Shown: in pieces, positions 3,465 through 14,897 of the stretch
Layout: each line of letters begins with the position of its first letter
How positions within the stretch are numbered: position 1 is the first letter of the stretch
DNA from: Betaproteobacteria bacterium
GTDB taxonomy: Bacteria > Pseudomonadota > Gammaproteobacteria > Burkholderiales > SG8-39
NCBI GenBank assembly: GCA_052386675.1
Contig: JBQTJX010000014.1
Span: forward strand, 18,120 to 82,119
Length of the DNA: 64,000 nucleotides
Direction of reading: 5' to 3'
Notes under the pieces: model-generated
Databases searched by the model: none
Told to the model about the DNA's origin: nothing
What the model saw: only the letters and a program-made list of their open reading frames with translations
Made by a program: the position numbers and the translations under genes

Positions 3465-7002
<3,538 letters not shown>

Positions 7003-12664: not shown

Positions 12665-12703
12665 GATGTAACCGATCGGGGCGAGTATATACTTGACAAA
12701 CGC
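12665..12703 (+). repeat. Left terminal inverted repeat of the IS element
   Basis: GATGTAACCGATCGGGGCGAGTATATACTTGACAAACGC. Contains TTGACA (12693-12698), which with CAGAAT (12716-12721, 17-nt spacer) could drive the transposase. Confidence 0.8.
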
Positions 12704-12743
12704 ATAACAGGGGGCCAGAATAGGGTCACTTTCAGAGGCCCCC

Positions 12744-13676
12744 ATGACCAAAGCACCCGCCAGCCATACCGAAGCCCACTTCCACGACGAGGAAGCCGCC
12801 CGCGCCCACCTTGAGGCCACCCGCTGGCCCAATGGCCCGGAATGCCCCCACTGTGGCGGCGTGGAGCGCATCAGCCGCATTGAGGCGAACCCGGCGAAGA
12901 AGGTCCGCGCTGGCCTTCTGTTCTGCGGGGACTGCCGCCAGCAGTTCTCCGTTACCGTGGGGACGGTCTTCGAGGACTCGAAGCTTCCCATCCACAAGTG
13001 GGTGTACGCGATTCACCTGATTTGCGCGTCCAAGAAGGGCATCAGCTCGAAGCAGCTTGAGCGCGTTCTTGGCGTGACCTACAAAACGGCGTGGTTCATG
13101 TCGCATCGCATCCGTGAGGCGATGGGCAAGGCCTACAGCACTCCGATGGGCGGCAAGGGCAAGATTGTTGAGGTTGACGAGACCTACTACGGCAACCTTC
13201 CGGGCAAGGAAATCCGCCCCGGCTCGAAGAAGCACAAGAACAAGATCATGGCCCTTGTGGAGCGCGGCGGGGACGTTCGCGCCATGCACGTTGCCGAGGT
13301 TGACGGGCGCAACGTGAAGGACATTCTCCAGGCCCAGGTCGCGGACCAAACCCACGTCATGACGGACGAGGCCCGTATCTACGCTTCCATCCCCTACAAG
13401 CACAGCACGGTTAATCACAGCATCTACGAGTACGCCCGTGGCAACGTGACCACGAATACCGTGGAAGGCTTCTTCTCCATCCTCAAGCGCGGCCTTACTG
13501 GCGTTTATCAGCACGTCAGCGAACAGCACCTCCAGCGCTACGTCTCGGAATTCGAGTTCCGTTACAACAATCGTGAGGCGCAAGGGATTGACGATCAGCA
13601 GCGCGCCGCGATCCTGATGAAAGGCATTCAGGGCAAGCGTCTCACCTATCGGCGGACTCACGAAGCCTCCGCGTGA
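12744..13676 (+). CDS. IS1595-family (ISXO2-like) DDE transposase
   Basis: 310 aa. N-terminal zinc ribbon (RWPNGPECPHCGG...LFCGDCRQQFSVTVGTVFE), then a DDE-type core (VEVDETYYG, VMTDEARIY, NTVEGFFSILKRG, YVSEFEFRYNNR). GAGG lies 5 nt upstream of the ATG. Confidence 0.9.
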   Translation: MTKAPASHTEAHFHDEEAARAHLEATRWPNGPECPHCGGVERISRIEANPAKKVRAGLLFCGDCRQQFSVTVGTVFEDSKLPIHKWVYAIHLICASKKGISSKQLERVLGVTYKTAWFMSHRIREAMGKAYSTPMGGKGKIVEVDETYYGNLPGKEIRPGSKKHKNKIMALVERGGDVRAMHVAEVDGRNVKDILQAQVADQTHVMTDEARIYASIPYKHSTVNHSIYEYARGNVTTNTVEGFFSILKRGLTGVYQHVSEQHLQRYVSEFEFRYNNREAQGIDDQQRAAILMKGIQGKRLTYRRTHEASA

Positions 13677-13766
13677 GGCTTTGCTAGTGACCATCATCGC
13701 CATGCTCCGAGAGATAGCCAAGCGAAAGACGCCGGAGCAATTGAGTTTGGATTTTTACCGCTAGTC

Positions 13767-14597
13767 ATGACAGTTGAGGAAAAACTTTCGGGGGTTAAGG
13801 TCAAAATTGAACGGGCCAACAAGCACATCCTCGAACTCGATGAAGCGATCAAGGGATTCCGAAATGCTCGCCCATACAAAATTGCGCTCAACCACGATTT
13901 GAAGACCGGAAAGCCTATTAGCGCAAAACTGATCAGCATTGAAGGCGTTCCCGATCCCCTCGCCGCTATTGCTGGTGACGTCATCCAAAATCTGAGGAGC
14001 GCTTTGGATCATCTCGCTCACCAGTTGTGGCTCATGGTCCCTGGCGCAGACCCGACGGTTGAGGTCAATTTCCCATTCTGGAACGAGCCCGCGAAATTCA
14101 AATCCGCGCTTAGCAGAAAAATAAAGCGCTGTCGGCAGGACGCGATAGATGTCCTCGGAGCGGTCGAACCATGCAAGGGACTTAAGGGTCACCAGTTGTG
14201 GGTTCTCAATCGCCTTAACAACGTCGACAAACATCGGCTGCTTATTACGATTGCCAGCAGTTGGTTCCACGACATGAGTTTTGAGGACCTGTTCAGCAAT
14301 ACTGGTATCGCAGACTTCTTCGCCGGGGCTGGAATCAGGGAGAAGATCAAGTTCCCCCCGATGGTTATTCGCGCCGCCAATCCGAGCATCAGCGCATTGA
14401 AAGCAGGCGACGTATTGCCGCTGGTTGTATTTGACCGCTCCGCGGAGTCGGAACTCGGCAAGAATCTGTACTTGAGATTTGAGATAACGCTCAACGAACC
14501 TGGCGTTATCGAGGGTAAGCCGATCTTGGAAACGGTCAAGCAACTCGCTGGCTTGGTTAACCGCACTGTTGACGCCTTCAGGCCCTGTCTTGTCTAG
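13767..14597 (+). CDS. Hypothetical 276-aa passenger protein of unknown family; possible HEPN-like Rx4H motif, function unknown
   Basis: Co-oriented with the transposase and 90 nt downstream of it. About 48% GC against about 70% in host flanks. Purine-rich first codon positions. Motifs QNLRSALDHLAH (R77-x4-H82) and LNRLNNVDKHRLL (D154-R157). No obvious SD, and a 317-aa antisense ORF overlaps it fully, so the strand call is not absolute. Confidence 0.6.
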   Translation: MTVEEKLSGVKVKIERANKHILELDEAIKGFRNARPYKIALNHDLKTGKPISAKLISIEGVPDPLAAIAGDVIQNLRSALDHLAHQLWLMVPGADPTVEVNFPFWNEPAKFKSALSRKIKRCRQDAIDVLGAVEPCKGLKGHQLWVLNRLNNVDKHRLLITIASSWFHDMSFEDLFSNTGIADFFAGAGIREKIKFPPMVIRAANPSISALKAGDVLPLVVFDRSAESELGKNLYLRFEITLNEPGVIEGKPILETVKQLAGLVNRTVDAFRPCLV

Positions 14598-14626
14598 AGT
14601 CTTATTCACAGCCAAACTCCAAAGCC

Positions 14627-14743
14627 ATGAATAAACGCCCAATGCCTTCGCCGGATGACGTACTGCGGACGATGCTGAACACGAAGCCGCAGCCTCGCGC
14701 CCAAAAGGCGACACCGAAGAAGAAGCCCAAGAAGGCCAAGTAG
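14627..14743 (+). CDS. Possible 38-codon lysine-rich small ORF (MNKRPMPSPDDVLRTMLNTKPQPRAQKATPKKKPKKAK)
   Basis: Read by hand; below the track cutoff. Lies 29 nt after the passenger stop and still inside the right IR. No recognisable SD, so coding status is doubtful. Confidence 0.2.
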   Translation: MNKRPMPSPDDVLRTMLNTKPQPRAQKATPKKKPKKAK

Positions 14744-14782
14744 GGGCTAGTCACTTTGCCCCCTTCGCGGGCTGTGGTGCCC

Positions 14783-14821
14783 GCGTTTGTTTCGTATACA
14801 GTCGCCCCGATCGGTTACATC
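14783..14821 (-). repeat. Right terminal inverted repeat of the IS element
   Basis: Reverse complement reads GATGTAACCGATCGGGGCGACTGTATACGAAACAAACGC, 34/39 identical to the left IR. Confidence 0.8.
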
Positions 14822-14897
14822 ATGGCAGATTTTAGCGGGTTCATGGATTGACCTTGACCATACTTGTTCCACAAGCAGGCACCGGGTCGCGCGCCAA

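What the first reader, a model, noticed from the sequence alone, without database searches (positions are those of the whole stretch)
12665..14821. IS1595-family 'transporter IS': 39-bp imperfect inverted repeats enclose the transposase plus about 1.1 kb of cargo
Seen in sequence:
- 12665-12703 reads GATGTAACCGATCGGGGCGAGTATATACTTGACAAACGC. The reverse complement of 14783-14821 reads GATGTAACCGATCGGGGCGACTGTATACGAAACAAACGC. They match at 34/39 positions, the outer 20 perfectly.
- They bracket 2,157 bp: a 310-aa zinc-ribbon plus DDE transposase, the 276-aa ORF and a 38-codon ORF, all on one strand.
- The left IR carries TTGACA-N17-CAGAAT pointing into the transposase gene.
- GTCACTTT followed closely by GCCCCC recurs in direct orientation just inside both ends (12725 and 14750).
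- The element sits 27 nt after the mnmE stop and 76 nt upstream of the likely start of the AbrB-like gene, so it could alter that gene's promoter.
- No clean 8-bp target duplication: the flanks are GACGGATG and ATGGCAGA, sharing only ATGG.

Established knowledge (as I recall ISfinder): plain IS1595 members are about 1 kb, and some subgroups carry passenger genes.
Basis: partly seen in the sequence, partly recalled or inferred. Interest (0 to 1): 0.6.

Follow-up and report, generated by a model that had tools for sequence, protein, structure and literature searches.

The report
Cargo-carrying IS1595 insertion sequence

Summary
The inverted repeat is real, but only its inner 24 nt belong to the element. 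The IS spans 12680-14806 (2,127 bp), with ends GGCGAG.../GGCGAC... and a perfect 8-bp target duplication, CCGATCGG. The outer GATGTAA/TTACATC is host DNA. Four relatives that lack the IS keep mnmE-AbrB synteny and carry GATGTAACCGATCGGTTACAT intact at this spot.

The transposase has the IS1595 zinc ribbon and DDE domain (D145, D208, E241, K248). Every related element I could delimit (transposase 47-73% identical) is 1.85-3.2 kb, so the whole clade carries cargo. Left and right modules are conserved and the middle is swapped for unrelated genes.

The 276-aa passenger belongs to a very large unannotated family (19,418 clusters) with no Pfam, PADLOC or PDB-fold match. An IS1595 transposase lies within 4 kb in 27 of 80 genomic copies. 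The family also occurs in transposase-less cassettes with inverted repeats and 8-bp duplications, and in phages. Its function is unknown. A conflict-type effector is my best guess, weakly supported.

The 38-codon ORF is a real, conserved backbone gene of the clade.

Verdict: a new member of a known kind (a transporter IS). Interest is moderate.

The parts
12680..14806 (+). Complete IS1595-family transporter IS (2,127 bp)
   Evidence: Ends GGCGAGTATATA / GGCGACTGTATA align with the ends of relatives L090, L091 and L092. Removing this span plus one CCGATCGG recreates the sequence found in IS-free relatives. G+C is about 0.48-0.67, against about 0.70 in the flanks.
12672..12679 (.). Left copy of the 8-bp target-site duplication, CCGATCGG
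   Evidence: Identical to 14807-14814. Twenty-eight related elements (29 loci; L090 and L091 are copies of one element) show perfect 8-bp duplications at the equivalent position.
14807..14814 (.). Right copy of the 8-bp target-site duplication, CCGATCGG
12665..12671 (.). Host DNA: left arm (GATGTAA) of the conserved target palindrome
   Evidence: Present, contiguous with CCGATCGGTTACAT, in IS-free relatives L174, L175 and L176.
14815..14821 (.). Host DNA: right arm (TTACATC) of the conserved target palindrome
12680..12703 (+). Left inverted repeat (IRL), GGCGAGTATATACTTGACAAACGC
   Evidence: 19/24 match to IRR. It differs at 1 of 24 positions from the IRLs of L083 and L090.
14783..14806 (-). 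Right inverted repeat (IRR); reverse complement reads GGCGACTGTATACGAAACAAACGC
   Evidence: The GGCGAG (left) versus GGCGAC (right) asymmetry is shared with L090 and L092.
12693..12721 (+). Promoter-like site, TTGACA-17-CAGAAT; the -35 hexamer lies inside IRL
   Evidence: 10/12 match. ACTTGAC is conserved in the IRs of most of the clade. Function is inferred.
12744..13676 (+). Transposase, 310 aa (zinc ribbon plus DDE)
   Evidence: PF12760 1.4e-12 and PF12762 1.9e-30. NF033547 1.3e-56. D145, D208, E241 and K248 are invariant across 40 homologues.
13677..13761 (+). Conserved post-transposase segment containing a +1-frame micro-ORF (TIIAMLREIAKRKTPEQLSLDFYR*)
   Evidence: Conserved in L083, L090 and L092, including an in-frame 6-nt indel. 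Its stop lies 2 nt before the cargo ATG. Its role is unknown.
13767..14597 (+). Passenger gene, 276 aa, from an uncharacterised family
   Evidence: 246 homologues and 19,418 cluster representatives at E<=1e-3. No Pfam, NCBIfam, PADLOC or PHROG hit. AF2 pLDDT 87.6. Invariant K13, R77, L80, D81, K155, H156 and R157.
14627..14743 (+). Small basic protein, 38 aa (PDDVLRTMLNT... followed by a Lys-rich tail)
   Evidence: 66-76% identical peptides in L083, L090 and L092, next to unrelated cargo. A profile finds it in about 40 loci of the transposase clade, on either strand.
14766..14795 (+). Terminator-like hairpin CGCGGGC-TGTGGT-GCCCGCG followed by TTTGTTTCGT, overlapping the inner end of IRR
   Evidence: Function is inferred.

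Best explanation
Window 12680-14806 is one intact copy of a transporter IS of the IS1595 family. By its ends and DDEK signature it looks ISNwi1-like.

How it works (shown and inferred steps are marked):
- A zinc-ribbon/DDE transposase recognises 24-nt imperfect terminal inverted repeats. It inserts with an 8-bp staggered cut, which here duplicated CCGATCGG. The structure is shown; the chemistry is inferred from the family.
- The target was the centre of a 21-22-nt perfect palindrome. That palindrome sits in the mnmE-AbrB spacer and is conserved in related genomes. This is shown.
- All three genes face the same way. They lie behind a promoter whose -35 is inside IRL and ahead of a hairpin terminator inside IRR, so they probably form one transcription unit. 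This is inferred.
- In this transposase clade the left module (IRL, transposase and about 80 nt beyond it) and the right module (small basic protein to IRR) are conserved. The segment between them is replaced by unrelated genes. So the 276-aa gene occupies an exchangeable cargo slot. This is shown by comparison; the exchange mechanism is unknown and is presumably recombination between the conserved flanks.
- The 276-aa protein is a stand-alone member of a huge unannotated family. It has a conserved N-terminal helical domain of about 160 aa, rich in invariant K/R/H/D residues, and a variable C-terminal half.
- My best guess for its role is a conflict-type effector (phage exclusion, or addiction of the host to the element). 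This last step is inference with weak support.
For: Family assignment:
- Domain and family hits.
- Invariant D145, D208, E241 and K248.

Ends and target duplication:
- The left-end alignment starts at GGCGAG in L083, L090 and L012.
- L090/L091 have ends GGCGAG/GGCGAC with duplication CTAAAAAG. L092 has duplication CTTTTTAG.
- Twenty-eight related elements (29 loci; L090 and L091 are copies of one element), plus this one, have perfect 8-bp duplications.
- In L001, the closest cargo relative, right-end similarity stops at GTCGCC.
- IS-free relatives (mnmE 83-85% identical, same yidC-mnmE-AbrB-PEPCK order) carry the uninterrupted palindrome.

Cargo-bearing clade:
- All 42 elements delimited by IR pairs are 1,851-4,351 bp, and the IRR lies 845-3,400 nt past the transposase gene.
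- Mosaic structure against L083, L090 and L092: element positions 1-1076 are 72-84% identical, the right about 100-190 nt are 78-90% identical, and the middle shows no similarity.

The passenger is a real, mobile gene family:
-.
- An IS1595 transposase lies within 4 kb in 27 of 80 genomic loci, in tandem or convergent layouts with several different IR sequences.
- The transposase is the only recurrent neighbour.
- Cargo-only cassettes with IRs and 8-bp duplications exist: L004 and L011.

Conflict flavour:
- Cargo in sister elements includes an N6_N4 methylase fused to Mrr, SocA/Panacea, NYN, DUF4145, MtlR-like, DUF3800 and Clp/Asp proteases, a PADLOC HEC-09 match and a PIN protein.
- Family members sit beside the serine integrase in Gordonia phages and on 17 viral contigs.
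Against: - Only one copy is visible in the window, and mobility is not demonstrated.
- IRR differs from IRL at 5 of 24 positions.
- The cargo function is not established. There is no PADLOC hit, no Pfam hit for any of 94 members and no significant PDB fold neighbour.
- Neighbours of transposase-less copies are mostly housekeeping genes, not defence islands.
- Most sister cargo genes have no annotation either, so 'conflict-type' rests on a minority of them.
- The ISNwi1 subgroup assignment rests on my recollection of ISfinder signatures. It was not compared with reference sequences.
Confidence: 0.85

Rival explanations
1. One reading: a 2,157-bp element (12665-14821) with 39-bp IRs whose outer 20 nt are perfect, inserted without a target duplication.
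For: The 34/39 inverted match is real and far beyond chance.
Against: - IS-free relatives contain GATGTAACCGATCGGTTACAT at this site, so the outer 15 nt are host sequence.
- Relatives 70-87% identical in transposase begin at GGCGAG with unrelated flanks.
- The 8-bp duplication CCGATCGG appears once the ends are moved inward.
Confidence: 0.02
2. The 276-aa passenger is a HEPN-type RNase (an Abi-like toxin). Its R77-x4-H82 motif would be the catalytic Rx4-6H signature. The cargo slot would mainly carry HEPN-like genes.
For: - R77 is invariant and H82 nearly so, and both lie in a long helix.
- Alternative cargo in the closest elements carries RNYLAH (L083) and RNKIAH (L090).
- L083's cargo has a weak HEPN_Apea match at the motif, E=0.23.
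- Sister cargo genes hit DUF4145 and MtlR.
- HEPN chains 2hsb and 7bxo appear among the weak Foldseek hits.
Against: - No HEPN Pfam model matches any of 94 family members, even at E<=1.
- The Foldseek HEPN hits have E=9 and probability 0.06.
- hhalign of the family profile against the two alternative cargo proteins gives probability below 1%.
- By my arithmetic, an Rx4-6H string is expected about once by chance in a protein of this size.
- Further invariant residues (K13, K155, H156, R157) are not part of the HEPN signature.
Confidence: 0.2
3. The passenger and the small protein are accessory factors of the element itself (regulators of transposition or target choice), not cargo.
For: - The small basic protein is conserved across about 40 elements regardless of cargo. 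It could well be such a factor.
- The micro-ORF stop abuts the cargo start, suggesting expression coupled to the transposase.
Against: - The 276-aa gene is replaced by unrelated genes in elements with 70-87% identical transposases.
- About two thirds of genomic copies have no IS1595 transposase within 4 kb.
- It also occurs in phages and on a plasmid without a transposase.
Confidence: 0.07
4. The element is an immobile relic: a once-active IS now fixed at this site.
For: - IRR has 5 mismatches to IRL, including the TTGACA region.
- There is a single copy in the window.
Against: - The target duplication is perfect.
- The transposase is full length with its catalytic residues intact.
- All three ORFs are intact.
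- The G+C content is still foreign.
- Genus-level relatives lack the element, so the insertion is recent.
- The IRL/IRR differences are partly shared with L090 and L092, so they are lineage features rather than decay.
Confidence: 0.15

Closest known systems
IS1595 family transporter ISs (tIS), ISNwi1-type with passenger genes (Siguier, Gagnevin & Chandler 2009, cited in PMC3129680 and PMC11891212; family features summarised in PMC8101967)
   Same: - Zinc-ribbon plus DDE_Tnp_IS1595 transposase.
- 8-bp target duplication.
- Terminal IRs beginning GG.
- Passenger gene(s) inside the IRs.
- By my recollection of ISfinder, the size fits the 'ISNwi1+' range (about 1.75-4.75 kb), and so do the DDEK signature and the GGnnatTAT-like ends.
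   Different: - This is a new sequence. The nearest transposase is 87% identical, and the nearest element with the same cargo has a 51% identical passenger.
- The subgroup was not checked against ISfinder reference entries.
- I found no description in the held literature of the conserved small basic protein or of the sharply bounded exchangeable slot.
Mobile insertion cassettes (MICs, e.g. IS231-MIC231 of Bacillus cereus; cited in PMC3129680)
   Same: Relatives L004 (1,066 bp) and L011 (1,030 bp) carry only the passenger gene between IRs, with 8-bp duplications. That is the MIC layout.
   Different: - The window element is autonomous, with its own transposase.
- The IRs of L004 and L011 differ from the window's, and mobilisation in trans is untested.
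Integron gene cassettes and other variable cargo slots of mobile elements
   Same: A conserved backbone flanks one position where unrelated, mostly single-gene, often conflict-related cargo is exchanged.
   Different: - There is no integrase and no attC-like site. No Rfam match was found, and the conserved junction folds no better than shuffles.
- Exchange probably relies on ordinary recombination between related ISs.
Stand-alone HEPN/Abi-type effectors (e.g. AbiV, DUF4145 proteins; PMC3710099)
   Same: - A single gene carried on mobile elements and phages.
- A conserved Rx4H in a helix.
- A conserved N-terminal domain with a variable C-terminal half.
   Different: There is no sequence-profile or fold match to any HEPN family, so membership is not supported.

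Membership tests
IS1595 family | Transposase with a DDE_Tnp_IS1595 (ISXO2-like) catalytic domain | tested here: met
   PF12762 1.9e-30 over residues 141-275. NF033547 1.3e-56, score 191.9 against a cut-off of 75.
IS1595 family | N-terminal zinc-ribbon domain (absent only from the IS1016 group) | tested here: met
   PF12760 1.4e-12 over residues 15-67. C34, H36, C37, C61 and C64 are invariant.
IS1595 family | 8-bp target-site duplication | tested here: met
   CCGATCGG at 12672-12679 and 14807-14814. The empty site in relatives has one copy.
IS1595 family | Terminal inverted repeats, beginning 5'-GG | tested here: met
   24-nt IRs, 19/24 identical, both starting GGCGA. The same ends occur in relatives.
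ISNwi1 subgroup (signature as I recall it from ISfinder) | DDEK catalytic tetrad, with K seven residues after E | tested here: met
   D145, D208, E241 and K248 are invariant in 40 homologues. The signature itself is recalled, not checked against ISfinder.
ISNwi1 subgroup (signature as I recall it from ISfinder) | Ends of the form GGnnatTAT, and sequence relatedness to ISNwi1 reference entries | tested here: inconclusive
   The window has GGCGAGTAT. Most of the clade has GG(C/G)(A/G)ATTAT. No ISfinder reference sequence was available for comparison.
Transporter IS (tIS) | Gene(s) additional to the transposase located inside the IRs | tested here: met
   The 276-aa and 38-aa ORFs lie between the transposase gene and IRR.
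Transporter IS (tIS) | Passenger not involved in transposition | not testable with these tools
   Indirect support only. The gene is swapped for unrelated genes in close relatives, and it occurs without any transposase.
HEPN superfamily | Conserved Rx4-6H motif | tested here: met
   R77 is invariant and H82 is conserved in at least 90% of sequences. On its own this motif is weak evidence.
HEPN superfamily | Match to a HEPN sequence model or to the HEPN four-helix fold | tested here: not met
Known anti-phage defence systems (PADLOC-DB v2) | Match to a defence-protein model | tested here: not met
   No PADLOC family at E<=1 for the transposase, the cargo or the small ORF.

The most novel reading that the evidence does not exclude
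This IS1595 clade may be a dedicated shuttle for single-gene conflict effectors. It would have a fixed backbone (IRL with promoter, transposase, small basic protein, terminator, IRR) and one sharply bounded slot in which unrelated effectors are exchanged.

On this reading, the 276-aa passenger founds a very large, unannotated effector family (19,418 clusters at 50% identity, no fold neighbour among solved structures). It would act in phage exclusion or host addiction. The conserved small basic protein would be its, or the element's, regulator.
Probability: 0.3. Interest if true: 0.7.

Novelty: new member of a known kind. Interest (0 to 1): 0.4.

Why it matters
For annotation: the exact ends, the target duplication and the empty site make this a clean, registrable IS. 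They also show how a palindromic target can masquerade as a long, perfect IR.

For host biology: the insertion splits a palindrome that is conserved between mnmE and the AbrB-like/PEPCK genes in related genomes. This may have changed their regulation.

More broadly: the passenger belongs to one of the larger protein families still lacking any annotation. Its repeated capture by IS1595 elements, cassettes and phages marks it as a good candidate for functional study. A whole IS clade with an exchangeable cargo slot and a conserved tiny protein would, if confirmed experimentally, extend the idea of cassette-type gene flow from integrons to simple insertion sequences.

Tried and rejected
- **Common origin of the three cargo types.** hhalign gave probability below 1%, so I rejected it.
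- **Defence-island context for transposase-less copies.** The neighbours are mostly housekeeping genes, so there is no support.
- **Subterminal direct repeat GTCACTTT as a functional site.** It is within chance and absent from relatives.
- **RNA element in or near the IS.** No Rfam match. The post-transposase segment folds no better than shuffles, z = -0.45.
- **General palindrome targeting by the clade.** Most reconstructed targets show 0-7 of 14 symmetric pairs. Six show 8/14 and only the window shows 11/14, so this is not established.
- **Near-identical DNA copies on plasmids.** None found.
- **Right end of the closest transposase relative (L083-L089).** Not found; similarity stops after the small ORF.
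- **Literature.** The Siguier 2014 review was not held. No paper in the held library links IS1595 cargo to defence.
Full report
**Observation.** The sequence shows the reported inverted repeat. Arms 12665-12703 and 14783-14821 match at 34 of 39 positions, the outer 20 perfectly. The outer 20-mer occurs nowhere else in the window and in none of 100 shuffles. Between the arms, all on the + strand, lie three ORFs:
- a 310-aa ORF at 12744-13676;
- a 276-aa ORF at 13767-14597;
- a 38-codon ORF at 14627-14743.

The 310-aa protein carries Zn_ribbon_IS1595 (1.4e-12) and DDE_Tnp_IS1595 (1.9e-30), and it passes the NCBIfam IS1595 model. The segment has about 0.48-0.67 G+C, against about 0.70 in the flanks. 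The flanks are mnmE (upstream) and an AbrB-family membrane protein gene (downstream). TTGACA-17-CAGAAT at 12693-12721 is the best promoter-like site in the region. A hairpin with a T-rich tail lies at 14766-14795.

**Where the element really ends.** I collected relatives in two ways:
- through the passenger protein (80 genome loci);
- through the transposase (look-ups; 80 metagenome loci).

In the closest informative relatives, sequence similarity to the window begins exactly at GGCGAG, and the DNA outside that point is unrelated. L090/L091 (transposase 70% identical) have ends GGCGAG.../GGCGAC... flanked by the 8-bp duplication CTAAAAAG. L092 (73%) has the same ends and CTTTTTAG. Across the clade, 28 related elements (29 loci; L090 and L091 are copies of one element) have perfect 8-bp duplications next to ends of the form GG(C/G)(A/G)A(T)TAT.... 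Applying the same rule to the window puts the ends at 12680 and 14806. That gives a perfect duplication, CCGATCGG (12672-12679 and 14807-14814). In L001, which has the closest passenger (51%), right-end similarity also stops at GTCGCC.

**Empty sites.** The closest mnmE homologues (83-85% identical) lie on contigs with the same yidC-mnmE-AbrB-PEPCK order. In three of them (L174-L176) the mnmE-AbrB spacer is only 57-110 nt, with no IS. In L177 the AbrB-like gene is absent. Their spacers contain GATGTAACCGATCGGTTACAT uninterrupted (L177 has a near copy), while the surrounding spacer has diverged. The window with 12680-14806 and one CCGATCGG removed reads the same.

This has three consequences:
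- The IS is 2,127 bp with 24-nt IRs (19/24 identical).
- It inserted precisely at the centre of a conserved 21-22-nt host palindrome.

The reconstructed target has 11 of 14 symmetric pairs. By my binomial arithmetic the chance of this is about 4e-5. Most relatives' targets are not palindromic (0-7 of 14, six at 8 of 14), so a general preference is not established.

**Family membership.** The features that the literature gives for IS1595 are all met. PMC8101967 lists 8-bp duplications, the zinc-finger domain and the DDE domain, and notes terminal GG for the related Merlin elements. D145, D208, E241 and K248 are invariant in 40 homologues. As I recall them from ISfinder, the DDEK tetrad, the GGnnatTAT-like ends and the size fit the ISNwi1 group with passenger genes. 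I could not check this against reference entries. The term transporter IS, and its origin in the 2009 IS1595 paper, are documented in PMC3129680 and PMC11891212.

**The clade carries cargo in one slot.** In all 42 elements for which an IR pair could be found, the right IR lies 845-3,400 nt beyond the transposase gene. Total lengths are 1,851-4,351 bp, and none is a plain element of about 1.1 kb.

I compared the window with L083 (87% transposase), L090 and L092:
- Element positions 1-1076 (IRL, transposase and about 80 nt beyond its stop) are 72-84% identical.
- The last about 100-190 nt (small ORF to IRR) are 78-90% identical.
- The middle shows no similarity.

In that slot the window has the 276-aa gene, L083 a 184-aa gene, L090 a 249-aa gene and L092 a 178-aa gene. 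Profile comparison finds no relationship among them.

Of 54 cargo ORFs from the clade, most have no Pfam match. The rest hit an N6_N4 methylase fused to Mrr, SocA/Panacea, NYN, DUF4145, MtlR, DUF3800, DUF1828, DUF6864 and Clp, Asp or trypsin-like proteases. One matches the PADLOC candidate HEC-09. A cultured example (Roseomonas marmotae plasmid) has a PIN-domain protein after the transposase. This mix leans towards conflict systems but is far from uniform.

**The passenger.** The 276-aa protein has 246 homologues in the word-indexed search. With a profile it reaches 19,418 cluster representatives at E<=1e-3 (14,116 at 1e-10; 2,100 at 1e-30). These are nearly all stand-alone proteins of 250-280 aa, from many bacterial phyla and some archaea.

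- Conservation: invariant residues are K13, R77, L80, D81, K155, H156 and R157. R16, H20, H82, N151 and D154 are nearly invariant.
- Structure: the AF2 model is confident (pLDDT 87.6, pTM 0.83). It has long N-terminal helices and a mixed C-terminal half.
- Conserved core: distant members in phages, a plasmid and viral contigs align only over residues about 1-163. The N-terminal domain is therefore the conserved core and the C-terminal half varies.
- Annotation: no Pfam, NCBIfam, PADLOC or PHROG model matches. Longer members show no fused domains. Foldseek finds no solved structure better than E=1.6.
- HEPN: the R77-x4-H82 motif invites a HEPN reading, but no HEPN model or fold match supports it.

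**Mobility of the passenger family.** In 27 of the 80 genome loci an IS1595 transposase lies within 4 kb. It is either upstream on the same strand or downstream and convergent, with several different IR sequences, many of them with 8-bp duplications. The transposase is the only recurrent neighbour; no other family recurs in more than 4 loci. Two loci carry the gene alone between IRs with 8-bp duplications, a MIC-like layout (L004, L011).

Neighbours of the remaining copies are mostly housekeeping genes. This fits single-gene insertion rather than residence in defence islands. In Gordonia phages ZiggyZoo and Samba the homologue is gene 32. It lies in the reverse-strand cluster beside the serine integrase. 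From general knowledge of actinobacteriophages, that position often holds prophage-expressed exclusion genes.

**The small ORF.** The 38-aa basic protein is 66-76% identical to ORFs in L083, L090 and L092 that sit next to unrelated cargo. A profile finds the motif (D/E)(D/E)VL(R/K)RMLxTPPxPH(K), followed by a basic tail, in about 40 loci of the transposase clade. It occurs on either strand, always beside the cargo. It occurs in none of the 80 passenger-anchored genome loci, which carry other IS1595 lineages. It is therefore a real gene and part of this clade's backbone. Its role is unknown.

**Verdict.** This is a genuine, apparently intact and recently inserted IS1595-family transporter IS, and a new member of a known kind. 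It fails on IR length, element length and the missing duplication.

What is of wider interest:
- the exchangeable cargo slot;
- the conserved tiny protein;
- the size and obscurity of the passenger family.

I give a conflict-effector role as the most likely function, but with low confidence. The tests that would settle it are listed under next steps.

Noticed in passing
window 12665-12679 plus 14807-14821; L174:3862-3920, L175, L176, L177: The host sequence GATGTAACCGATCGGTTACAT(C) is a perfect palindrome. It is conserved in the spacer after mnmE in four related genomes while the flanking spacer diverges. It is likely a host operator or terminator-like element (RNA hairpin -13.8 kcal/mol). The IS has split it.
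   Followed up: partly
window 14627-14743; e.g. L083:5647-5751, L090:5862-5975, L164:5158-5349(-), L170:5127-5267(-): A family of small basic proteins (motif DDVLRRMLxTPPxPHK plus a Lys/Arg-rich tail) is conserved in about 40 elements of the transposase clade. It sits next to unrelated cargo and on either strand. No database match.
   Followed up: partly
window 13677-13761; L083:4934-5024, L090:4955-5033, L092:3962-4040: About 75 nt after the transposase stop are conserved. In the +1 frame they read TIIAMLRxIAKxK..PEQLSxDF, with an in-frame 6-nt indel in L083. The stop lies 2 nt before the cargo ATG in the window and L083, and forms a TAATG overlap in L092. This may reflect a frameshift extension or translational coupling. 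It is seen only in the >=70% subclade.
   Followed up: partly
L004:3777-4842; L011:3877-4906: Transposase-less cassettes of 1,066 and 1,030 bp carry only a homologue of the 276-aa gene. They lie between IRs with 8-bp duplications (GGGGATTG; AGTCGGCT). L011's target is again a near-perfect palindrome (ACGGTT-AGTCGGCT-AACCGT).
   Followed up: partly
L083-L089 (ENA ERZ272477xx contigs): The closest transposase relative (87%) sits in a phage-like region (RecT-like, DnaG zinc ribbon, DUF1376, ParB_N, methylase). It carries a different 184-aa cargo, and no recognisable right IR follows the small ORF.
   Followed up: partly
L090:3917-3936 and 6053-6064; L092 flanks: Two different elements (L090, L092) are inserted in the same 16-nt target sequence, CAACTAAAAAGTCAAC, in opposite orientations. 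L125 and L147 also share a similar target (GTCAAG(G/T)GTGCTT). This hints at some target preference.
   Followed up: no
L172 (Gordonia phage ZiggyZoo MW601225.1, gene 32); MN096365.1 gene 32; L173 (Citricoccus plasmid NZ_CP133844.1): Homologues of the N-terminal about 160 aa of the passenger are annotated 'hypothetical protein'. In two temperate Gordonia phages they lie beside the serine integrase. On an actinobacterial plasmid the homologue lies between a giant helicase-related gene and a DNA methyltransferase.
   Followed up: partly
It scores within the range of shuffled controls, and relatives have no counterpart.
   Followed up: yes
L178 (Roseomonas marmotae plasmid p1318-1, 190371-192850): In a cultured organism, an IS1595 family transposase (51% identical) is followed on the same strand by a 266-aa hypothetical protein, a PIN-domain protein and a 61-aa ORF. 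This is another cargo-bearing relative.
   Followed up: no
window 14822-14897: The window's spacer between the palindrome and the AbrB-like start holds about 30 extra nt (AGATTTTAGCGGGTTCATGGATTGACC...) that are absent from the IS-free relatives' spacers. It includes tandem TTGACC motifs. Their relevance to AbrB-like gene expression is unknown.
   Followed up: no
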